Positions 35,250-43,705 of a stretch of 61,018 nucleotides of DNA are shown piece after piece. The position numbers and the translations under genes are program-made. The DNA is from Actinomycetota bacterium. Its GTDB lineage: Bacteria; Actinomycetota; UBA4738; CALAEC01. The stretch spans positions 1 through 61,018 of the forward strand of contig JBOGWB010000067.1 of the NCBI GenBank assembly GCA_050693035.1. The letters run 5' to 3'. The notes below the pieces were generated by a model that saw nothing but the letters and a program-made list of their open reading frames with translations, had not been told where the DNA came from and ran no database searches. Position 1 is the first letter of the stretch, and every line of letters starts with the position of its first letter.

Positions 35250-35576
35250 CTAGGTCAGGACGATCCACACCAGGACGCCGCCCGCGATGCCCGCCAGCGC
35301 GACCACGACCGCCAGGGCGATCCGGAGAGGCGACGCGGTCGCCATGCGCAGCGCGCCGCTCCCGGTCTGCTTGGCGCGGTCGAGCGCTCGCTCTGCCCAC
35401 GCCCACTCCGACGCCAGGATGGCCAGCCCGAGAAGGATGACCACGATGCCCGGGCCCGGGGTGACCATCATGACCAGCCCAGCGAAGAGGACCACGAACC
35501 CCACCACCGTGACGGCGATGCGCTTCCCGCTTCGGCCGATGTACCGGACGATGGAACGAAGGGGTTGGAGATCCAC
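35250..35576 (-). CDS. PGPGW-domain membrane protein
   Basis: MMVTPGPGIVVILLGLAILASEWAWA. GTG 35576 with TAGTCT 7 nt upstream. Confidence 0.85.
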   Translation of the reverse strand: MDLQPLRSIVRYIGRSGKRIAVTVVGFVVLFAGLVMMVTPGPGIVVILLGLAILASEWAWAERALDRAKQTGSGALRMATASPLRIALAVVVALAGIAGGVLVWIVLT

Positions 35577-35578
35577 GG

Positions 35579-35884
35579 TCAAGAGACTACTTGGCCGTCG
35601 CGTACGATGGCCGCCCCATCCACCATGAGTTCGTCGAGGATCCCCACGACGATGGCTCGGATGGGAGCCACCTCCCACCCCACCACCTGCCGCGCGGAGT
35701 TCCCCTCGTCGATGATCAGCACCGTTTCGCCGGCCCCGGCCCCCACCGTGTCCGCGGCGATGATGTAGCTGCCGTCCGGCTTGCCGGAGGAGTCCAGGAG
35801 GTCGCACACTAGGAGCTTCCGGCCTTCGAACACCGGCGCCTCGATGGTCGCCACGATCGTACCCACCACGCGTCCCACCTTCAC
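35579..35884 (-). CDS. BMC vertex (BMC-P, EutN/CcmL) protein
   Basis: MKVGRVVGTIVAT..ADTVGAGAGETV..GNSAR..IVGILD. Confidence 0.93.
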   Translation of the reverse strand: MKVGRVVGTIVATIEAPVFEGRKLLVCDLLDSSGKPDGSYIIAADTVGAGAGETVLIIDEGNSARQVVGWEVAPIRAIVVGILDELMVDGAAIVRDGQVVS

Positions 35885-36165
35885 GTGACGCCTCCCCCCG
35901 TCTCCTCCACCGCGTCCACGATCCCGACGATGGCGTGGTCCACCGGGACGAACGTCTCCCGGAGAGCCTGCGCAGCCTCCCGAGCTCCCACGAAGTAGAC
36001 CAGTTCGCCCGGCCCGGCCATGTACACACCGTCGGCCGCCACGACCGGGCTTCCCGTGGGTCGCTGCCGCCGGTCCAGGGGCTGGACGATGAGGAACTTC
36101 ACACCCTCCAGTCCGTCGGCCTTGACGCTCGCCACCACGGTCCCGATGACCCGTCCCAGCTGCAT
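35881..36165 (-). CDS. BMC vertex (BMC-P, EutN/CcmL) protein
   Basis: MQLGRVIGTVVASVK..AADGVYMAGPGELV..VDHAIVGIVD. Confidence 0.93.
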   Translation of the reverse strand: MQLGRVIGTVVASVKADGLEGVKFLIVQPLDRRQRPTGSPVVAADGVYMAGPGELVYFVGAREAAQALRETFVPVDHAIVGIVDAVEETGGGVT

Positions 36166-36761
36166 CAGCCGGCCTTCTCCACGCCTCTGGCCCGGAGGAG
36201 GAACCGGGGATCGGCCGCCAGGTTCTCGTCCATCCCCTCGTGCAGCCGGGCGATGACCACGTGGGCGACCTCCTGGCCCGACCCCTTGATCCGGTCCAAG
36301 CCGTACCCGATGGCCGCCTCGACCTCGGCCAACTCGCCGCCGAACAGCACGTAGCCCTTTCCGCCGAGCTCGTCGGCCAGGCCCAGGCCCCGGATCACCA
36401 CGTTGGCGCCCTTGACCCCGGCGTCGGCGGCGTGGATCACCGCCGCCACGGTGGTCGTCTCGATGACACCGAGGGCTTCGCCGCCCTCCTCCCCGCGAGC
36501 CCCGCCGATGGAGCGCACCACCGCCGGGTGCACGTCGGGCAGGAACACCACATCCACCAGCGACCCGTCCCCGACCTGGCGCCCGGCCTCGACCGCCTCC
36601 TGGACGTCGGCGGTGAGACCCCCCACGAGGACCAGGTACTTGCCCGGGTGCACGGTCCCCGCCCGGATCACCTCCAGCGGGGCTCTCTTGATCATGGCGT
36701 CGCCGGCCTCGATCCCCCTGGCGATCGAGTCGAACTCGAGGACGGCGATGGCCGGCTCCAT
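36165..36761 (-). CDS. Tandem-domain BMC shell protein (single-layer BMC-T, PduT-like)
   Basis: Two BMC repeats: IAVLEFDSIARGIEAGDAMIK..PGKYLVLVGG and LGVIETTTVAAVIHAADAGVK..GGKGYVLFGG. ATG 36761 with GAGGAGG. Confidence 0.9.
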   Translation of the reverse strand: MEPAIAVLEFDSIARGIEAGDAMIKRAPLEVIRAGTVHPGKYLVLVGGLTADVQEAVEAGRQVGDGSLVDVVFLPDVHPAVVRSIGGARGEEGGEALGVIETTTVAAVIHAADAGVKGANVVIRGLGLADELGGKGYVLFGGELAEVEAAIGYGLDRIKGSGQEVAHVVIARLHEGMDENLAADPRFLLRARGVEKAG

Positions 36762-36778
36762 GGGTTCCTCCTCCGCCC

Positions 36779-38242
36779 TTAGACGATGCGCAGAGCGCCG
36801 ACCACGGTGATCCGGCGTTCCCGGCAGAACGTCCGGGCCCGGGTGAGCCCGTCTCCGGTCGGACTGGCGATCGAGTAGGAGGTGAATCCCTCGCCTCCCT
36901 CCCCCAGCCCCGCGAGGTTCGACCCGTTGGCCACGAAGATGCTGCAGTTCATGGCCCGTCCCATCCGGGTGATGGCGTCGACGTTGGTGGAGTGGATCAC
37001 CGCGGTGTGCCGGAACCCGTGCTCGGACTTCACCGCGAGGTCGATGGCCTGATCCACGTGGGGCACCCGGGTCACCGGCATCACCGGCATCATCTGCTCG
37101 GTCCACACCAGGTTGTGCTCGTTGGGGACCTCGGCCACGGCCAGGCGAACGTCGTCCCCGATCCGGATCCCGATCTCGGCCAGGATCACCGAGGCGTTCT
37201 TGCCGATCCATCGCGGATCGATGACCCCCGGCTTGTTCGGCGGGCCCATCTCTCGAAAGATGACCCGCTCGAGGCGCCGCAGCTCGTGCTCCTTCAGCAC
37301 GTACGCACCCTGCTGGCCCATGGACCGGACCAGCCGGTCGGCCACGCTGTCCACGACGATGGTGGTCTTCTCGTCGGTGCACACCACGTTGTTGTCGAAG
37401 GACCCGCCGGCGATGACGTCCCGAGCCGCCCTGTCGATGTCCGCCGTCTCGTCGACGACCGCCGGTGGGTTTCCCGGTCCCGCCGTGATGGCCCGCTTGT
37501 CGGACTTCAGGGCTTGCTGAACCACCCCCGGGCCCCCGGTCACCAGGAGCAGTCGGACGTCGGGGTGATGCATGAGCTCCTTGGCGCTGTCGATGGTCGG
37601 CTCGGGGATGGCCGAGATGAGGTTCTCCGGCCCACCTGCGGCGACGACCGCCCGGTTGATCAGCCGGATGTTCTCCGCGGACACCCGTTTCGCGTTGGGG
37701 TGCACGTTGAACACCACGGCGTTGCCGGCGGAGATGATCGAGAGGGTGTTGTTGATGATCGTCGAGGTCGGGTTGGTGGTGGGGGTGATCGCAGCGACCA
37801 CGCCGAACGGCGCGAACTCGGTCACCATCATGCCCTTGTCCCCGGTGACCGCCTCGGACTCGAGGTCCTCGGGGCCGGGGGTCTTCGTGGTCACCAAGAC
37901 GTTCTTGCGGACCTTGTCGGCGGCTCGGCCCAGCCCCGTCTCGGCGCGGGCCATCTCCGCCAGCCGCTCGGCGTTCTCGAGCATGTCGGTGCGGATCTGC
38001 GCCACGATCCGTTTCCGGCCCTCCATACCGATCTGGCGGTACGCCTGGAAGGCGCGAGAGGCCGCCCCCACCGCCTCGTCGATGGTGGGAAAGATCCCCT
38101 CGCCCGGCGGTACCTCCGAGGAGGCCCTGGAGAGCTCCTCCTCGCCTCGCAGGGCGGCGCCGGGACGCTCCCCCGCCTGGCCCAATCGCCGGCGGACCCG
38201 CTCGATGATGCCCTGGATCTCTTCCTGAGTGAGCGTCTTCAT
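36779..38242 (-). CDS. CoA-acylating aldehyde dehydrogenase (EutE/PduP-like) with N-terminal encapsulation peptide
   Basis: TPTTNPT, TGGPGVV, AGPGNPP, SFDNNVVCTDEK (catalytic Cys), HGFRHTA; N-terminal helix TQEEIQGIIERVRRRL. Confidence 0.93.
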   Translation of the reverse strand: MKTLTQEEIQGIIERVRRRLGQAGERPGAALRGEEELSRASSEVPPGEGIFPTIDEAVGAASRAFQAYRQIGMEGRKRIVAQIRTDMLENAERLAEMARAETGLGRAADKVRKNVLVTTKTPGPEDLESEAVTGDKGMMVTEFAPFGVVAAITPTTNPTSTIINNTLSIISAGNAVVFNVHPNAKRVSAENIRLINRAVVAAGGPENLISAIPEPTIDSAKELMHHPDVRLLLVTGGPGVVQQALKSDKRAITAGPGNPPAVVDETADIDRAARDVIAGGSFDNNVVCTDEKTTIVVDSVADRLVRSMGQQGAYVLKEHELRRLERVIFREMGPPNKPGVIDPRWIGKNASVILAEIGIRIGDDVRLAVAEVPNEHNLVWTEQMMPVMPVTRVPHVDQAIDLAVKSEHGFRHTAVIHSTNVDAITRMGRAMNCSIFVANGSNLAGLGEGGEGFTSYSIASPTGDGLTRARTFCRERRITVVGALRIV

Positions 38243-38541
38243 GTGTCACTCCGATGCTTGTGGTAGCGGTCCTCGCCACCGACCTCCCAGGTGTCGACGA
38301 TGGCCATGATCACCGCGTCGCAGGGCCGGTCTCGGGTCATCTCGGTCTGGCGCGCGGAGCTGCCCTGGGCCACCAGGACGACCTCGTCCGGCCCGGCTCC
38401 CACCGCGTCGGCGGCCACCACGAACTGGCCGGTCTCCTTGCTGTCGACGTCGAGGGTCCGGATCACCAGGAACTTGAGTCCTTCCATCGAGGACTCCTTC
38501 TTGCTGGATACCAGCGTGCCGGCCACACGTCCGAGGAGCAC
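38239..38541 (-). CDS. BMC vertex (BMC-P, EutN/CcmL) protein
   Basis: MLLGRVAGTLVSSKK..ADAVGAGPDEVVLVAQGSSAR..DAVIMAIVD. Confidence 0.94.
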   Translation of the reverse strand: MLLGRVAGTLVSSKKESSMEGLKFLVIRTLDVDSKETGQFVVAADAVGAGPDEVVLVAQGSSARQTEMTRDRPCDAVIMAIVDTWEVGGEDRYHKHRSDT

Positions 38542-38564
38542 GTCCGCCTCCTTCCTTCCCCGAC

Positions 38565-38594
38565 CGGGGGGCGCCGCGATGACGGCGCCCCCCG
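38565..38594 (-). promoter_or_regulatory. Strong intercistronic hairpin after the BMC-H gene
   Basis: Perfect 12-bp stem CGGGGGGCGCCG-cgatga-CGGCGCCCCCCG between the BMC-H stop (38607) and the BMC-P start (38541). Confidence 0.65.
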
Positions 38595-38606
38595 CCGGGA
38601 TGGCTC

Positions 38607-38933
38607 CTACTGGCCCGCCGCCGTCTGGCCGGGACCCATCTCCCGCTCGGCCTGCTCCTTGCGCCCGAGTGGCAGGACCACGTCGATGTTGACGTGCGGA
38701 CGGGCGATCACGTGACTGGCGACCATCTCGCCGATCTTCTGGGCGTTCTGCTCGCCGGCCTGCACCGCCGCCTTCACCGCGGCGACGTCGCCGCGCACGA
38801 TGGCGGTCACGTAGCCGCCTCCGGTCTCCTCGAACGAGACCAGCTCGACCTTGGCCGCCTTCACCATCGCGTCAGCGGCCTCGACCATTGCCGGAAAGCT
38901 CCGGCACTCGATCATCCCAAGGGCCTCAGCCAT
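38607..38933 (-). CDS. BMC hexamer shell protein (BMC-H, PduA/EutM-like)
   Basis: ALGMIECRSFPAMVEAADAMVKAA..GGGYVTAIVRGDVAAVKAAV..HVIARPH. Confidence 0.96.
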   Translation of the reverse strand: MAEALGMIECRSFPAMVEAADAMVKAAKVELVSFEETGGGYVTAIVRGDVAAVKAAVQAGEQNAQKIGEMVASHVIARPHVNIDVVLPLGRKEQAEREMGPGQTAAGQ

Positions 38934-38946
38934 CGGATCCTCCTCC

Positions 38947-39579
38947 CTACCTGGTCGCTTCTCGACCTTCCAGTCCTTCGATGGCGGCCACGGCGGCCTG
39001 CCATCCCACATCGATGTCACGTTCCTCCCCACCGAGGTACACCCGGCCCATCGACCCGAAGGACCGAACCTCGAGGACGTTGATCTCCGCGGCCTTCTCG
39101 GCCTCGTTGGCCGCGAGCGCCGCGTACGCCGCCGGCTCGCACTCCAGGACGTACAGGGTGTCCCCTCGGAGCAGCATCTGGCCGTGGCGCTGCCGGTTGA
39201 TCAGCTGCGCGTGGTGGTCGTCGACGCGGCGGATGATCTGGCTCGACAGGATCCGCGGCTTGATGCGGTCCTCTTCCTTCAGGGAGATGGCGTCGAGGAT
39301 GGCCGACCCCGCCGCCCGCGCCTCCGCCTGCTCCGGCGAATGCACCTCGAGAAGGCCGAAGTACCGCTCGACGATCTGCATCCCCGGCTTCACCCCGGTG
39401 GCCTTGAGAGCCACATCGGTGAGCCGGTTGATCTCGATCCCTGGCGCCACCTCAACGTACAGCGATGCGTCCCCGGCGAGGGGCAGGAACCCCTGGGCCA
39501 CCGTCCCGAGGAACGCGGCGTACTGAGGCTGGAGGCTGTCCAGGAAGCAGTACCCGCGGAGCTCGATCCCGTTGCTCAC
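38947..39579 (-). CDS. Permuted double-stacking BMC-T (CcmP/CsoS1D-like)
   Basis: [49 protein letters not shown] motifs typical of the gated trimers. Confidence 0.9.
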
Positions 39580-39594
39580 GCCGCCCCCTCTCTG

Positions 39595-40452
39595 TCAGTA
39601 GCGCGATCCACCCTTGCCCCCACTCACGATCTCGACCCCGGCCGACGCGCCGATCCGGGTGGCGCCCGCGGCCACCATCTCGCGGACGTCCTCGGCCGTA
39701 CGGATGCCCCCGGCCGCCTTCACCCCCATCTCCGGGCCCACCGTCTCTCGCATGAGCAACACGTCGTGAACCGTGGCCCCGCCCGGACCGTAGCCGGTGG
39801 ACGTCTTGACGAAGTCGGCCTTGGCCGCCTTGGCCAGGTGCGACGCGATGACCTTCTCCTCGTCGGTGAGCAGGGCCGCCTCGATGATGACCTTGAGCAC
39901 GACGCCGGCCTCGTGGCAGGCGTCGGCCACCATCTCGATGTCCCGGCGGACCAGTTCGTGGTCGCCGCTCTTCAGGGCCCCGATGTTGATGACCATGTCG
40001 ACCTCCCGGGCACCGTCGCGGATGGCCCGCCGAGCCTCGAGCGCCTTCACCTCGGATGTGGTGGCGCCGAACGGAAACCCGACCACCGACGCCACCCGCA
40101 CCGGCGTTCCTCGGAGGTTCTCGGCGGCCCGTTTCACCCACGCCGGGTTCACGCAGACGGCGGCGAAGCCGTACTGCGCGGCCTCGCCGCACAGCCGATC
40201 GAGGTCCGCCGCCGTGGCGTCGGGCTTGAGCAGCGTGTGGTCGATGTATCGCGCCAGGTCCTGGGGGACCTTCGCCCCGTCCCCCGTGTAGCTGATCCGG
40301 CCGGCGCCCGTGCCCACGAAGCCCCGGACCTTGTCCGAACAGTGCGCAGCGCAGGACCCCTCGCAGCCGACGCACCGGCCCTCCGGGGCGCCCGTCAGGG
40401 CGGCCAGAACCTCCTGAGTGACCACGTCGACCAGATCGTTGCGCTCGCTCAT
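39595..40452 (-). CDS. deoC: Deoxyribose-phosphate aldolase with N-terminal encapsulation helix and 4-Cys motif
   Basis: [29 protein letters not shown] (Schiff-base Lys), [12 protein letters not shown]; about 65-aa N-terminal extension. Confidence 0.95.
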
Positions 40453-41090
40453 CGCACTCCGTCCTTGAGGTATCGCCGCTCGATCTCACCGATCTTCCCA
40501 ACCCTCCGGGCGTGCCGGCCGCCCGACCAGGCTGTCTGGAGCCAGGCCTGGACGATCTGGAGAGCGAGGCTCTCACCGAGCAGCCCCGCCCCCAGCGCCA
40601 GGACGTTGGCGTGATTGTGCTCCCGAGCGTTCTTGGCGGAGGAGACGTCCCAGCACGTCGCGGCTCGGATCCCGGGGACCTTGTTCGCCGTGATCGCCGA
40701 CCCGATCCCGGCGCCGTCGACCACGATCCCCCACCGGCACTCGCCCCCGGCCACCAGCCGGGCCACGGTGTGCGCGTAGTCGGGGTAGTCCACCGAGTCG
40801 GTGGTCTCCGTCCCGCAATCGTGGACGGTGAACCCGTTCTCCCGGAGATGCGCTTCGAGCCGCTGTTTGAGGTGGAAACCGCCGTGGTCCCCGCCGATGG
40901 CGATGTCCGCCAGCACCGGGTTCGCCATGGGGGGCGGCACCACCGATCCCTCTTGCTCGTGGGGGACCGGCGTCCCTGCGAGGGCCGCCGTCTCGGTGCC
41001 GGTCCGCACCCCCGTGTCCACGGCGGCGACGACCGCCGACACGAGGTCGCGCACGTCCCGCTCCGAAGGAACGATCTCCGCCACCGTCAC
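40449..41090 (-). CDS. rpiB: RpiB/LacAB-family sugar-phosphate isomerase with N-terminal encapsulation helix
   Basis: [46 protein letters not shown] overlap with the GntR stop. Confidence 0.9.
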
Positions 41091-41869
41091 CGCCTCACGA
41101 TCTGGGCCGGCCGCCGCATCTCCACCCGGTACTCGTAGCGATCCCCGGCGAACAGCAGGCGGGTCCACTCCACCGCCCGGTCGTCGGGGGTGAACGCGAT
41201 CCGGTGGATAACCAGCAGCGGGCTTCCTGGCTCGTAGCCGAGCAGTCCTGCGTCGGGCTCCGCGGCCAGTCCCGGGTTGATGGTCTCCACCGCCCGGGCC
41301 AGGGAGAGGCGGAGTGGCTCGCCCTGCAGCAGCTCGTACAGGGAACCCTCCTCGATGCCCCCCGTTTCGAAGAGGTCGTCGCGCTCTCCCAGAAGCGCCT
41401 GGGGGAGCCACGTCTCCGCGAGGCCGACCGGATCGCCGTCGGCGAGGAACAGGCGCCGGAGGAACCTGCACGGCGCTCCCTCCTCGAGGCCCAGCCCTTC
41501 GGCCACCTCGGGCGGCGCCGGGGTCACCGAAGAGGCCAGCAGGCGGTGCGAGGGGGTGTAGCCCTGGCTCCGGAGCAGCTCGGAGAACGACGTGAGCACC
41601 GGGACGTGCTGGATCTTCGGGACGCCGACGAAGGTGCCCTTCCCCTGGATCCTCCGGATCACGCCGTCCGCGGCCAGGTCGTTCATGGCCTGCCGGATGG
41701 TCGATCGAGAAACCTCGTACCGCCGCTCCAGCTCGGCCTCGGTGGGAAGCCGATCCCCTGGGCCGAGGCCCCGGCGATGGATCTCACCCACGATGGCCTC
41801 CCTGAGCTGGAAGTACAGGGGAAGAGGAGCCGCCCGGTCGAGCTCCGTTGCTCCGGTCGACACGGTCAT
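41087..41869 (-). CDS. GntR (HutC subfamily, UTRA domain) regulator of the BMC operon
   Basis: PLYFQL..GDRLPTEAELERRYEVSRSTIRQA..QGKGTFV; UTRA SLYELL..FAGDRY. Confidence 0.94.
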   Translation of the reverse strand: MTVSTGATELDRAAPLPLYFQLREAIVGEIHRRGLGPGDRLPTEAELERRYEVSRSTIRQAMNDLAADGVIRRIQGKGTFVGVPKIQHVPVLTSFSELLRSQGYTPSHRLLASSVTPAPPEVAEGLGLEEGAPCRFLRRLFLADGDPVGLAETWLPQALLGERDDLFETGGIEEGSLYELLQGEPLRLSLARAVETINPGLAAEPDAGLLGYEPGSPLLVIHRIAFTPDDRAVEWTRLLFAGDRYEYRVEMRRPAQIVRR

Positions 41870-41887: not shown

Positions 41888-41910
41888 ATCATCATGATGA
41901 TAGGACGTCC
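41888..41910. promoter_or_regulatory. Adjacent palindromes overlapping the GntR-operon -10
   Basis: ATCATCATGATGAT (perfect 14-mer, 41888-41901) and GGACGTCC (41903-41910); minus-strand TATCAT at 41897-41902. Confidence 0.55.
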
Positions 41911-42000
41911 GGTCATCCGTGTGATTATCGGCCGCTCCACTCCAGGAATCAAGTACCTCTTGCCTCGATTCGGATAGGCTCCACCACCGTGAGGGGACCG

Positions 42001-42393
42001 ATGAGGAGATGGGCGCTCGCCTCCATGGTGCTGCCGCTGCTTCTCGCCGCCTGCGCCGGAGGTGGCCGCGAGGAAGCGACGCGACCGGCGCAGTCTCCGA
42101 CCACACCATCGCCACCGCCGCCGCCCGAGGAGGAGTGCCCCGCTCAGACCACCATCACGATGAACTCACGATCCTTTGATCCGACGTGTGTGGAGGTCGC
42201 CAAAGGAGACACCTTGACCCTCGAGAATCCCAGCGGCGCCTTGCACAGCTTCACCCTGGACAAGCCGAAGGTGGACCTCGACGTGGAGGCGGACGAATCG
42301 GGGACGTATGAGGTCGAGGGCCTGAAACTCAGGGATTACCGCTTCTACTGCAAGTACCACGCCGGGATGTTCGTGGACGTTCGGGTGACCTAG
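42001..42393 (+). CDS. Cupredoxin (type-1 copper) lipoprotein
   Basis: Lipobox LAAC, Pro linker, ligands HSFT and YCKYHAGM. Confidence 0.85.
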   Translation: MRRWALASMVLPLLLAACAGGGREEATRPAQSPTTPSPPPPPEEECPAQTTITMNSRSFDPTCVEVAKGDTLTLENPSGALHSFTLDKPKVDLDVEADESGTYEVEGLKLRDYRFYCKYHAGMFVDVRVT

Positions 42394-42401
42394 CGGAAGA
42401 T

Positions 42402-43295
42402 TCAGTACCCCAGACGGGCGAGGGCGCTGGGGTCGCGCTGCCACTCCCGCAGCACCTTGACCCGCAGATCGAGGAAGACCTTGCTTCCGAGGATCCGCTC
42501 CAGCTCATGGCGAGCCCGGGTGCCCACCGTCTTCAGCATCTCTCCCCCGCGCCCGACGACGATGCCTTTCTGCGACTCCCGCTCCACCAGCACCGAGCAG
42601 GAGATGCGCACCAGATCACGCTCCTCGTCGCGTTCCATCTCCTCCACCTGCACGGCCACCGAGTGCGGGATCTCCTCCCGGGTGAGCTGGAGGATCTTCT
42701 CCCGCACGATCTCGGCCACCCGGAACTCCACCGGCTGGTCCGTGACCTGCCCCGGCTCGTAGAGGGACTCTCCTGGCGGCATCAACGACGCGAGCACCTC
42801 GAGGAGCTCCTCGATGTTCTCCCTCGTCTTCGCCGACACCGGCACGACGTGGTCGAAGTCAGCGAGCGCCGCCGCCCGCTCGAGCTGCGCCAGAAGCTCG
42901 CCTTTCGACACGCGGTCGATCTTGTTCACGGCGCAGACCTTGGCGCACGGGAGCGGCGCCACCCGCTCGCGGGCGACGAACTCGTCGCCCCGACCGACCC
43001 CGCCCGCCGCGTCCACGACGAGCATCACCGAGTCCACGCCCTCGGTGCTCTCTTCCACCATCCGGTTGAGACGTTCTCCCAGCAGCGTCCGGGGCTTGTG
43101 GAAGCCCGGGGTGTCGGTGAAAACGATCTGGTAGCCCGACGTGCTGAACACGCCGCGAACGCGTCCCCTGGTGGTCTGGGGCTTGTCGGTGACGATCGAG
43201 ACCTTCTGACCTACAAGCGCGTTCACGAGGGTCGACTTGCCGGTGTTGGGTCGCCCCACCACCGCCACGAAGCCGGAGCGGAAGGGCGAGGTCAC
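42402..43295 (-). CDS. era: GTPase Era
   Basis: GRPNTGKSTL, PQTTR, DTPG, NKID, KH-domain REEIPHS..GIVVGRGG. Confidence 0.97.
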   Translation of the reverse strand: MTSPFRSGFVAVVGRPNTGKSTLVNALVGQKVSIVTDKPQTTRGRVRGVFSTSGYQIVFTDTPGFHKPRTLLGERLNRMVEESTEGVDSVMLVVDAAGGVGRGDEFVARERVAPLPCAKVCAVNKIDRVSKGELLAQLERAAALADFDHVVPVSAKTRENIEELLEVLASLMPPGESLYEPGQVTDQPVEFRVAEIVREKILQLTREEIPHSVAVQVEEMERDEERDLVRISCSVLVERESQKGIVVGRGGEMLKTVGTRARHELERILGSKVFLDLRVKVLREWQRDPSALARLGY

Positions 43296-43705
43296 CTCAA
43301 GTCTTCAGGACCGAACGCGTCGGGAAGGAGCTCCGCCAGCTCTCGCTCGTCGCGCATGCCGCCGGGGCCCTCCGAGATCACCACGAGGTCCTGGCCGAAC
43401 TCGTGGAGGACCTGGCGGCACCCCCCGCACGGCCAGGCCGGCCCGTCGGGGGACGACCCCACGACGGCCACCGCGACCAGCCGGCGCGCCCCTTCCGACG
43501 CCGCTCGCTGCACCGCGGACCTCTCCGCGCACACCGAGAGCGGGTACGCGGCGTTCTCCACGTTCGCCCCGGCGAAGATCTCCCCGTCGTCGGTGAGAAC
43601 CGCCGCTCCCACCAGGTACCGGCTGTACGGGGCGTAGGCGTGCTCGCGGGCCTCTCGAGCCGCCTCGAGCATCGCTTCGATCTTGCCGTCGTCGGGCCGG
43701 CTCAC
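43292..43705 (-). CDS. cdd: Cytidine deaminase
   Basis: AYAPYSRYLVGAA, NVENAAY, CAER, PCGGCRQ. GTGA coupling to the upstream gene. Confidence 0.95.
   Translation of the reverse strand: MSRPDDGKIEAMLEAAREAREHAYAPYSRYLVGAAVLTDDGEIFAGANVENAAYPLSVCAERSAVQRAASEGARRLVAVAVVGSSPDGPAWPCGGCRQVLHEFGQDLVVISEGPGGMRDERELAELLPDAFGPEDLR

What the first reader, a model, noticed from the sequence alone, without database searches (positions are those of the whole stretch)
35579..41869. Minimal GntR-RpiB-DeoC-AldDH microcompartment operon (SPU-like)
Seen: ten co-oriented, mostly translationally coupled genes in the order gntR, rpiB, deoC, BMC-T (stacking type), BMC-H, BMC-P, aldDH, BMC-T, BMC-P, BMC-P. Established: RpiB plus DeoC are the signature of the bioinformatically defined sugar-phosphate-utilisation BMC class. 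One BMC-H with both trimer types and three pentamers resembles the Haliangium ochraceum-type shell. To my knowledge the in vivo substrate of these organelles is unresolved. Inference: the organelle cleaves (deoxy)pentose-5-phosphate to G3P plus acetaldehyde and traps the aldehyde as acetyl-CoA. This is the best candidate for an under-described system in the window.
Basis: partly seen in the sequence, partly recalled or inferred. Interest (0 to 1): 0.8.

Follow-up and report, generated by a model that had tools for sequence, protein, structure and literature searches.

The report
Known SPU3-type deoxyribose-phosphate microcompartment operon
This is a real, intact ten-gene operon for a protein-shelled bacterial organelle that most likely breaks down deoxyribose-5-phosphate from DNA, but it belongs to a type (SPU3) that is already catalogued in hundreds of genomes and partly characterised, so it is an ordinary new example.

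Summary
Ten co-oriented, mostly overlapping minus-strand genes (35579-41869) encode a GntR/UTRA regulator, an RpiB-like protein, deoxyribose-phosphate aldolase (DERA), a CoA-acylating aldehyde dehydrogenase and six shell proteins: one BMC-H, a CcmP-like stacking trimer, a PduT-like trimer and three distinct pentamers.

The locus meets every feature I could test of subtype SPU3. About 80 fetched loci from Actinomycetota, Chloroflexota, Acidobacteriota and others share the same nine-gene order.

Details added here:
- All three enzymes carry conserved N-terminal targeting helices.
- The RpiB-like protein has an invariant Asp in place of the catalytic Cys, but its sugar-phosphate pocket is invariant.
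- The operon's DERA is the only clear DERA found in the genome. The genome also holds phosphopentomutase, a pyrimidine-nucleoside phosphorylase and an adjacent cytidine deaminase, but no PduL-type phosphotransacylase.
- A palindrome, unique in the genome, sits before gntR and is conserved in the GntR-bearing sub-clade. It is probably the operator.

Verdict: a new member of a known kind, of low interest. The in vivo substrate and the role of the RpiB-like protein remain untested for any SPU3 locus.

The parts
41087..41869 (-). GntR/HutC-family regulator with a UTRA effector domain (260 aa)
   Evidence: PF00392 66 bits and PF07702 109 bits. Its stop overlaps the rpiB start as GTGA. A homologue is found directly upstream of rpiB only in the window's own sub-clade: 9 of 59 loci with enough upstream sequence by the automated count, and L020 also carries one.
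41888..41901 (-). Probable GntR operator: the perfect 14-bp palindrome ATCATCATGATGAT, 19 nt before the gntR ATG
   Evidence: The same core appears before gntR as GGTCATCATGATGACC in L023 and L025, as TCATCATGATGA in L020 and L082, and as the variant GGTCGTCCGGATGACC in L021 and L022, although the intergenic regions are otherwise unalignable. The 12-mer core occurs once in the 2.15-Mb genome.
41924..41952 (-). Promoter-like site TTGATT-17-GATAAT in the divergent gap between gntR and a cupredoxin gene
   Evidence: 2 promoter-like sites in 7.5 kb against 0.2 expected from shuffles, both in this gap. This is a consensus match only.
40449..41090 (-). RpiB-like cargo protein (213 aa): targeting helix, about 35 aa of linker, then an RpiB fold with Asp125 in place of the catalytic Cys
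   Evidence: PF02502 183 bits. Alignment to E. coli RpiB 1NN4 and to 3HE8 gives DGAG where they have CGTG. D125 and A127 are invariant in 74 loci, as are the equivalents of D9, H10, H99, N100, R133, H134 and R137. The AF2 model has helix 10-25 (pLDDT about 93) and a disordered stretch 26-61.
39595..40452 (-). Deoxyribose-5-phosphate aldolase (285 aa), the signature enzyme, with a 64-aa N-terminal extension (helix plus Cys cluster)
   Evidence: TIGR00126 287 bits; 272 bits to DERA 8QPS. D152, K187 and K216, which I take to correspond to E. coli D102, K167 and K201 (correspondence from motif position and my own knowledge of DERA, since the E. coli alignment was not printed), are invariant in 80 loci. 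AF2 gives helix 2-20 and then a low-confidence segment. Cys cluster C27-x2-C30-x3-C34-x3-C38.
38947..39579 (-). BMC-T of the double-stacking (Tdp) kind, CcmP-like (210 aa)
   Evidence: NF053796 338 bits; 289 bits to CcmP 4HT5 and 5LSR, 239 bits to the H. ochraceum trimers 5V76 and 5V74. The pore Glu-Arg pair (E71, R72) aligns with the CcmP 'ER' pair.
38607..38933 (-). Single BMC-H hexamer protein (108 aa)
   Evidence: PF00936 106 bits. Best solved match among natural proteins is H. ochraceum HO-5815, 138 bits. It carries KAAK and ARPH edge motifs.
38239..38541 (-). BMC-P pentamer 1 (100 aa)
   Evidence: PF03319 96 bits. Best solved match is the H. ochraceum BMC-P in 5V74, 106 bits.
36779..38242 (-). 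CoA-acylating aldehyde dehydrogenase (487 aa) with an N-terminal targeting helix
   Evidence: PRK15398 622 bits; 420 bits to 5JFL, with the Cys of FDNNVVCTDEK aligned to the Cys of FDNNLPCVAEK (that this is the catalytic Cys is from my own knowledge). The N-terminal motif LSxxEIQxII is conserved across loci.
36165..36761 (-). BMC-T of the single-layer (Ts) kind, PduT-like (198 aa), with His in place of the PduT pore Cys
   Evidence: Two BMC domains, 111 bits. Aligned to PduT 3PAC, the window reads TVHPGK where PduT reads TICPGK.
35881..36165 (-). BMC-P pentamer 2 (94 aa)
   Evidence: PF03319 90 bits; 40-45% identical to the other two pentamers.
35579..35884 (-). BMC-P pentamer 3 (101 aa)
   Evidence: PF03319 89 bits. 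Its start overlaps the P2 stop as GTGA.
35250..35576 (-). PGPGW small membrane protein, possibly an eleventh co-transcribed gene; not part of the conserved cassette
   Evidence: PF09656 67 bits. A GTG lies 2 nt after the P3 stop and no terminator-like site lies between them. It does not follow P3 in any related locus: in L016 and L019 the next recognised gene is recO, 3 kb and about 100 nt away respectively, and the only PGPGW hits (L079, L085) are weak, upstream and on the opposite strand.

Best explanation
The locus is an SPU3-type catabolic bacterial microcompartment (metabolosome).

Shown by sequence:
- A self-contained operon encodes a Haliangium-like shell: one hexamer, one gated CcmP-like stacking trimer, one PduT-like trimer without a pore cysteine, and three distinct pentamers.
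- It also encodes three cargo proteins, each with an N-terminal amphipathic helix joined by a flexible linker.

Inferred mechanism:
- Deoxynucleosides are converted in the cytosol to deoxyribose-1-phosphate and then deoxyribose-5-phosphate (dR5P). The enzymes are cytidine deaminase (next to the operon), pyrimidine-nucleoside phosphorylase and phosphopentomutase (both elsewhere in the genome).
- dR5P relieves repression by the GntR/UTRA regulator at the palindrome before gntR, and enters the shell.
- Inside, DERA cleaves dR5P to glyceraldehyde-3-phosphate, which leaves, and acetaldehyde.
- The shell holds the acetaldehyde while the acylating dehydrogenase converts it to acetyl-CoA and NADH.
- Neither the operon nor the genome encodes a PduL-type phosphotransacylase, and the operon has no alcohol dehydrogenase or PduS. 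Acetyl-CoA/CoA and NADH/NAD+ must therefore cross the shell, most plausibly through the gated pore of the stacking trimer.
- The RpiB-like protein most likely binds DERA and helps pack the core, and does not isomerise ribose-5-phosphate.
For: - Gene content and order.
- Item-by-item fit to the published SPU3 description: tested.
- Enzyme residues: the DERA triad is invariant and the AldDH Cys is present.
- Targeting helices are conserved across about 80 loci and modelled as helix plus disordered linker.
- Shell: the proteins best match the H. ochraceum shell, whose structure with these components is solved in the 5V74 entries.
- Genome context: the BMC DERA is the only clear DERA. deoB scores 455 bits and a pyrimidine-nucleoside phosphorylase lies 0.6 kb from it. 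A PNP is present, cdd is two genes upstream, and there is no PduL.
- Housekeeping isomerase: a separate RpiB with a GGSGQGEQ loop (the Glu-base type reported for M. tuberculosis, from my own knowledge) is encoded elsewhere, so pentose-phosphate metabolism does not need the operon's copy.
- Published biochemistry: an SPU6 DERA cleaves dR5P, and its RPI is inactive on R5P and forms a roughly 1:1 complex with DERA.
- Conservation: the same nine-gene order is found in about 80 loci, and the concatenated tree follows phyla.
Against: - No experiment exists on any SPU3 locus, and none in vivo on any SPU type that I found. The substrate is inferred from one enzyme family.
- The RpiB-like pocket residues and the DGAG loop are invariant in 74 loci. 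A pure scaffold would not need that, so part of the chemistry may be missing from the model.
- How NAD+ and CoA are regenerated is unexplained.
- The genome is 89% complete, so the absence of PduL is not proof.
- Inducer identity and operator function are inferred from position and conservation only.
Confidence: 0.85

Rival explanations
1. The organelle is an SPU3 microcompartment, but its physiological substrate is not, or not only, dR5P. The RpiB-like protein would be an active isomerase or ring-opening partner that uses Asp125 with the retained His. It would feed or remove another sugar phosphate linked to the aldolase step.
For: D125, A127 and all sugar-phosphate-binding residues are invariant in 74 loci from several phyla. 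The protein is always adjacent to DERA and is fused to it in some SPU3 loci. The authors of the 2024 study leave rare sugar phosphates open. The protein differs from the genome's own housekeeping RpiB, so it was not kept for pentose-phosphate metabolism.
Against: The SPU6 orthologue showed negligible R5P isomerase activity, and complex formation did not change DERA kinetics. dR5P has no 2-hydroxyl, so it cannot itself be isomerised (established chemistry). DERA scores as a true equivalog, 287 bits against a cut-off of 117.
Confidence: 0.12
2. The locus is a decaying or silent remnant that no longer forms an organelle.
For: Only 15 of the 61 genomes searched in the same order (own genome included) have any BMC gene, so the trait is often lost.
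Against: All ten frames are intact with coupled junctions. The residues I take to be catalytic and pore residues are conserved. Shell and cargo proteins are 83-95% identical to the nearest relative, L016, while flanking housekeeping genes are only 53-68% identical, which indicates strong purifying selection. It holds the only clear DERA in the genome.
Confidence: 0.02
3. The cassette is a recent horizontal arrival, a genomic island dropped into the era-recO housekeeping cluster, and not a lineage trait.
For: The operon interrupts the conserved ybeY-CNNM-cdd-era ... recO-uppS run. Its distribution among relatives is patchy. Its RpiB-like gene best matches the Cys-type RpiB structures (3HE8, 1NN4), not the genome's own Glu-type copy.
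Against: G+C is uniform with the flanks, 0.69-0.70. Relatives (L016, L019, L021-L023, L025) carry the cassette in the same ybeY/era/recO/uppS neighbourhood. The concatenated DeoC+Tdp+AldDH tree needs only 5 phylum changes, where the minimum is 4 and the shuffled mean is 21.9. No integrase or repeats flank it.
Confidence: 0.1

Closest known systems
SPU3 subtype of sugar-phosphate-utilising BMC loci (Axen 2014; Sutter et al. 2021, PMC8217296, Supplementary Data 2; curated in Dwyer et al. 2024, PMC11585597)
   Same: - The enzyme set is AldDH plus pfam01791 plus pfam02502 only.
- AldDH and DERA carry N-terminal targeting peptides.
- The shell has one BMC-H, three distinct BMC-P with two adjacent, a CcmP-like stacking trimer and a BMC-Ts with no PduS partner and no pore cysteine.
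- Actinobacteria are among the listed hosts. The published Tdp tree holds a 210-aa CcmP-like SPU3 trimer from an Actinobacteria MAG, the same length as this one.
   Different: - RpiB and DERA are separate, translationally coupled genes, not the fusion seen in some SPU3 loci.
- RpiB has its own targeting helix.
- A GntR/UTRA regulator with a conserved palindrome heads the operon, but only in this sub-clade.
- A PGPGW membrane gene follows the operon in this genome only.
SPU6 locus of Chloroflexi bacterium GWB2_54_36, the only SPU system with enzyme data (Dwyer, Sutter & Kerfeld 2024)
   Same: [quoted passage not shown]
- The DERA catalytic triad is conserved.
- RPI has Asp in place of Cys66.
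- DERA has an N-terminal extension of about 65-70 aa.
   Different: - SPU6 has a C-terminal targeting peptide on AldDH, a stacking trimer of a different clade, no BMC-Ts and an EutQ-like protein.
- Here the AldDH peptide is N-terminal, the stacking trimer is CcmP-like and a BMC-Ts is present.
Haliangium ochraceum (HO) model shell
   Same: The best solved-structure matches of BMC-H (among natural proteins) and of pentamer 1 are the HO proteins. Both trimers also match HO trimers. Both systems have one hexamer and three pentamers.
   Different: HO has two stacking trimers and no DERA or RPI in its main locus (the number of HO trimers is from my own knowledge). Its function is unknown.
Cytosolic deo pathway (DeoA/DeoB/DeoC of E. 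coli and Bacillus)
   Same: The chemistry is the same: nucleoside phosphorylase, then phosphopentomutase, then DERA yielding G3P and acetaldehyde.
   Different: Here the DERA step and acetaldehyde oxidation are placed inside a protein shell. The regulator is GntR/HutC-type, not DeoR. The aldolase gene is separated from deoB and pdp.

Membership tests
SPU BMC (general) | A DeoC-type pfam01791 aldolase (DERA) in the shell locus, with its catalytic Asp and two Lys | tested here: met
   TIGR00126 287 bits. D152, K187 and K216 are invariant in 80 loci. Their correspondence to E. coli D102, K167 and K201 is by motif position, not by a printed alignment.
SPU BMC (general) | A pfam02502 RPI adjacent to DERA, with Asp at E. 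coli Cys66 (reported for all SPU RPIs) | tested here: met
   PF02502 183 bits. The window reads DGAG where 1NN4 and 3HE8 read CGTG. The Asp is invariant in 74 loci.
SPU BMC (general) | An acylating aldehyde dehydrogenase with a targeting peptide | tested here: met
   PRK15398 622 bits. The Cys aligns with that of 5JFL. The conserved N-terminal EEIQGIIERV helix has the highest helical moment of the three cargo proteins.
SPU BMC (general) | [quoted passage not shown] | tested here: inconclusive
   There are three PF03319 proteins, 40-45% identical to each other, and P2 and P3 are adjacent and overlapping. Colour-clade HMMs were not available, so clade membership was not tested.
SPU BMC (general) | A DERA N-terminal extension absent from cytosolic DERA (helix plus further elements) | tested here: met
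   Solved DERAs align only from residue 64-66 onward. AF2 gives helix 2-20 and a second helix 39-48. The extension is conserved in 45 aligned sequences.
SPU3 | No PTAC, alcohol dehydrogenase, TPI or PduS in the locus | tested here: met
   The ORF map and Pfam scans of the locus and its flanks show none. PF06130 has no hit in the whole genome, which is 89% complete.
SPU3 | [quoted passage not shown] | tested here: met
   There is only one single-domain BMC gene in the genome. The window protein carries KAAK and ARPH, and is closely similar to HO-5815, 138 bits over residues 1-93.
SPU3 | A BMC-Tdp of the CcmP-like clade | tested here: met
   338 bits to the CcmP model; 289 bits to CcmP against 187 bits to CsoS1D.
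SPU3 | A BMC-Ts without a PduS partner and without a pore cysteine | tested here: met
   His38 aligns with PduT Cys38. No PduS-like gene lies in the locus.
SPU3 | Assignment by the BMC Caller locus and shell HMM set | not testable with these tools
   The HMM set is not available here. The subtype is assigned from the written description only.
SPU6 | C-terminal targeting peptide on AldDH, no BMC-Ts, an EutQ-like protein, Chloroflexi only | tested here: not met
   The AldDH helix is N-terminal. A BMC-Ts is present. There is no extra small ORF. The host is an Actinomycetota MAG.
SPU2 | A fourth BMC-P (an extra green-clade copy); a pore Cys in most BMC-Ts; Bacteroidetes, Spirochaetes or candidate-phyla hosts | tested here: not met
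   There are three BMC-P only, and His sits at the pore position.
Functional metabolosome (assembled shell with encapsulated cargo) | The shell assembles and recruits cargo; the pathway is active in vivo | not testable with these tools

The most novel reading that the evidence does not exclude
The encapsulated RpiB-like protein is not a dead packing scaffold. It would be a working partner of DERA. Its DGAG loop (Asp for Cys, Ala for Thr) and all sugar-phosphate-binding residues are invariant across phyla. This would fit a protein that binds dR5P and opens its furanose ring, or hands the open chain to DERA. It would also fit an Asp-based isomerase acting on a sugar phosphate not yet linked to these organelles.

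A related open point is the partly conserved C-x2-C-x3-C(-x2-H) cluster in the DERA extension. It could be a metal or redox site, in an organelle that has no known NAD+-recycling enzyme.
Probability: 0.25. Interest if true: 0.5.

Novelty: new member of a known kind. Interest (0 to 1): 0.2.

Why it matters
SPU microcompartments are among the most widespread bacterial organelles, and they are thought to recycle DNA-derived deoxyribose in soils and sediments. No SPU3 locus has been tested. This example adds nothing new in kind.

It is, however, a compact and fully intact operon of ten genes in 6.3 kb. It has its own regulator and a probable operator, it holds the host's only clear DERA, and its shell is very close to the structurally solved Haliangium model. 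That makes it a convenient template for heterologous reconstitution.

It could also serve to test three open questions:
- what the RpiB-like protein does;
- how NAD+ and CoA are exchanged without recycling enzymes;
- what the regulator senses.

Tried and rejected
- **Other operator copies.** I searched the whole genome for more copies of the palindrome, for example before deoB, pdp or cdd. The 12-mer core is unique and looser patterns gave only scattered G+C-rich hits, so a wider regulon is not supported.
- **Recent inter-phylum transfer.** The concatenated tree is largely phylum-coherent. The few odd placements are near-identical to actinobacterial rows and look like binning or labelling problems: L034 labelled 'Verrucomicrobiota', and L085 and L087 labelled 'Acidobacteriota'.
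- **SPU6 or SPU2 classification.** Both were rejected on defining features.
- **A second DERA.** There is only a weak DeoC/LacD-family hit, 34.6 bits on C50.
- **Fold of the Cys-cluster segment.** AF2 gave pLDDT 41-62 with no defined fold for that segment, so nothing can be said about a metal site from the model.
- **GntR as a general SPU3 feature.** It is not. It was found in 9 of 59 loci with enough upstream sequence by the automated count, and also in L020.
- **Direct link to the published SPU3 trees.** The trees confirm a 210-aa CcmP-like SPU3 trimer in an Actinobacteria MAG. They hold no sequences, so I could not compute identity.

Full report
**Observation.** The stated ends match the P3 stop (35579) and the gntR ATG (41869). 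Pfam and NCBIfam scans confirm each gene:
- a GntR+UTRA regulator;
- an RpiB-family protein;
- deoxyribose-phosphate aldolase (TIGR00126, 287 bits against a cut-off of 117);
- a CcmP-like tandem-BMC trimer (338 bits);
- one BMC-H;
- a CoA-acylating aldehyde dehydrogenase (PRK15398, 622 bits);
- a PduT-like tandem-BMC trimer;
- three EutN/CcmL pentamer proteins.

Five junctions overlap by 1-4 nt. The rest are 13-65 nt gaps, each with a GGAGG-like site. This is the only BMC locus in the genome, a 2.15-Mb, 89%-complete MAG.

**What it is.** The sugar-phosphate-utilising (SPU) class was defined in 2014. It was expanded in 2021 to more than 280 loci in 26 phyla and seven subtypes, with the DNA-degradation/deoxyribose model already proposed. 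The written description of SPU3 lists the following, with Actinobacteria among the hosts:
- AldDH, pfam01791 and pfam02502 as the only enzymes;
- N-terminal targeting peptides on AldDH and DERA;
- one standard BMC-H;
- a pentamer triplet;
- a CcmP-like stacking trimer;
- a BMC-Ts with no PduS partner and no pore cysteine.

Each item that can be tested from sequence is met:
- The stacking trimer scores 289 bits to CcmP against 187 to CsoS1D, and keeps the pore Glu-Arg pair.
- The single-layer trimer has His where PduT has its pore Cys.
- No PduL-type phosphotransacylase exists anywhere in the genome.
- The three pentamers are 40-45% identical to each other, and two are adjacent.

SPU6 and SPU2 are excluded on their own defining features. 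The colour-clade HMMs were not available, so the subtype call rests on the description.

Among natural proteins, the best solved-structure match of BMC-H is HO-5815; only an engineered BMC-H tandem fusion scores higher. The best match of pentamer 1 is the Haliangium pentamer. Both trimers also match Haliangium trimers.

**How common it is.** A scan of one genome per species found 447 confirmed relatives of the extended DERA. In the 80 best loci, the order rpiB-deoC-Tdp-H-P-aldDH-Ts-P-P is the same wherever the contig is long enough. These loci come from Actinomycetota, Chloroflexota, Acidobacteriota, a Polyangiaceae MAG and others.

A concatenated DeoC+Tdp+AldDH tree is largely coherent by phylum: 5 label changes, where 4 is the minimum and the shuffled mean is 21.9. 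It places the window with unnamed Actinomycetota and Gaiellaceae MAGs. Within the window's order, 15 of the 61 genomes searched (own genome included) carry BMC genes.

Relatives carry the cassette in the same ybeY/cdd/era/recO/uppS neighbourhood, and G+C matches the flanks. It is therefore a lineage trait with losses, not a fresh island.

**Mechanism, and what is shown against what is inferred.**

*Shown by sequence:*
- The DERA Asp and two Lys, and the AldDH Cys, are present; the DERA residues are invariant in 80 loci.
- All three enzymes have N-terminal extensions with conserved amphipathic helices: RpiB 'PSExEVRxLVxxVV', DERA 'LIEAVTREVLAAL' and AldDH 'LSxxEIQxII'.
- AlphaFold models give helix 10-25 plus a disordered linker for RpiB, and helix 2-20 plus a poorly defined 40 residues for DERA.

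*Shown for the genome:*
- The operon's DERA is the only clear DERA.
- Phosphopentomutase (455 bits) lies 0.6 kb from a pyrimidine-nucleoside phosphorylase on another contig.
- A purine nucleoside phosphorylase family gene is present.
- Cytidine deaminase lies two genes upstream of the operon.

*Inferred:* deoxynucleosides give dR5P in the cytosol. DERA cleaves it inside the shell. Acetaldehyde is trapped and oxidised to acetyl-CoA, and G3P leaves. With no recycling enzymes, CoA and NAD+ exchange through the gated trimer, as the 2024 paper also suggests for PTAC-less subtypes.

*Published support:* an SPU6 DERA is active on dR5P in vitro. Its RPI is inactive on R5P and forms a roughly 1:1 complex with DERA. 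The 2024 paper contains no in vivo work, and I found no experiment on SPU3.

**The RpiB-like protein.** It has Asp125 at the catalytic Cys position and Ala127 at the neighbouring Thr position. Both are invariant in 74 loci. So are the equivalents of D9, H10, H99, N100, R133, H134 and R137, which form the sugar-phosphate pocket.

The genome has a separate housekeeping RpiB of the Glu-base type, with a GGSGQGEQ loop. The published view is a packing role. The strict conservation of the pocket is not what a pure scaffold would need, and this is the main open point.

**The regulator.** The 130-bp gap between gntR and a divergent cupredoxin lipoprotein gene holds the only two promoter-like sites in 7.5 kb. 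It also holds a perfect 14-bp palindrome, ATCATCATGATGAT, 19 nt before the gntR ATG.

The same core recurs before gntR in relatives whose intergenic regions do not otherwise align:
- GGTCATCATGATGACC in L023 and L025;
- TCATCATGATGA in L020 and L082;
- the variant GGTCGTCCGGATGACC in L021 and L022.

The 12-mer core is unique in the genome. By the automated count, GntR is present in 9 of 59 loci with enough upstream sequence, all in the window's sub-clade, and L020 carries one as well. I read the palindrome as the autoregulatory operator of a clade-specific repressor. Its inducer is probably a sugar phosphate, since it has a UTRA domain. This is inference only.

**The Cys cluster.** The DERA extension contains C27-x2-C30-x3-C34-x3-C38:
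- C27 is at least 90% conserved in the 45-sequence alignment.
- C30 and C34 are conserved in about 80% of the 80 loci.
- C38 is Cys in 45% and Ser or Thr in the rest.
- Three fetched loci, labelled Acidimicrobiia, Ilumatobacter and Acidobacteriota, lack the 12-residue segment.

The main text of the 2024 paper mentions cysteine only for the RPI active site and the mass-spectrometry method. The AF2 model is uninformative for this segment. Another first-stage note flagged the same motif. My only contribution is to show that its conservation is partial.

**Verdict.** The claim that the system is under-described is overstated. This is a new member of a known kind. Earlier follow-ups in this scan reached the same verdict on the same cassette in other genomes, but those are not independent evidence. 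Interest is low. The residual value lies in the untested role of the RpiB-like protein, cofactor exchange, and the regulator with its operator.

Noticed in passing
window 41888-41901 (minus strand): A perfect 14-bp palindrome, ATCATCATGATGAT, lies between a -10-like GATAAT and the gntR start. It is conserved before gntR in related loci as GGTCATCATGATGACC or GGTCGTCCGGATGACC, and its core is unique in the genome. It is probably the GntR/HutC operator of the BMC operon.
   Followed up: yes
window 40339-40380 (DeoC residues 25-38): The DERA N-terminal extension holds a C-x2-C-x3-C-x3-C cluster. The first three Cys are 80-90% conserved across SPU3-like loci. The fourth is often Ser or Thr. The whole 12-residue segment is deleted in three fetched loci (L076, L078, L092).
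   Followed up: partly
window 35250-35576 (minus strand): A PGPGW-family small membrane protein gene starts 2 nt after the last pentamer gene, with no terminator-like site between them. It may be co-transcribed with the organelle operon in this genome, but it does not follow P3 in any related locus.
   Followed up: partly
window 42001-42393 (plus strand): A small lipoprotein with a cupredoxin domain and a C-x2-H-x4-M-type copper motif is transcribed divergently from gntR. It sits inside the otherwise co-oriented era ... recO run.
   Followed up: no
window 43292-43702 (minus strand): Cytidine deaminase lies between the CNNM/CBS gene and era, two genes upstream of the operon. The same cdd position is seen in Gaiellaceae relatives (L021, L022) and in L016. 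This may be a functional link to deoxynucleoside salvage or catabolism.
   Followed up: partly
genome contig C16:3966-7142 (minus strand): deoB (phosphopentomutase) and a pyrimidine-nucleoside phosphorylase are separated by a glyoxalase/VOC-like ORF. They are not linked to the only DERA gene, which sits in the BMC operon on C67.
   Followed up: partly
genome contig C30:21319-21774 (plus strand): A housekeeping RpiB with a GGSGQGEQ loop (the Glu-base type reported for M. tuberculosis) lies next to a low-molecular-weight phosphatase-like ORF and an ORF that looks like glyA; neither neighbour was scanned. It is a different lineage from the BMC copy, which resembles the Cys-type RpiB of Firmicutes and E. 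coli.
   Followed up: partly
loci L034, L085, L087: Contigs labelled Verrucomicrobiota (L034) and Acidobacteriota (L085, L087) carry cassettes that nest within, or are nearly identical to, actinobacterial ones. L085 and L087 have end branches of only 0.006-0.03, next to Acidimicrobiia L079. This is likely binning or labelling error, not transfer.
   Followed up: no
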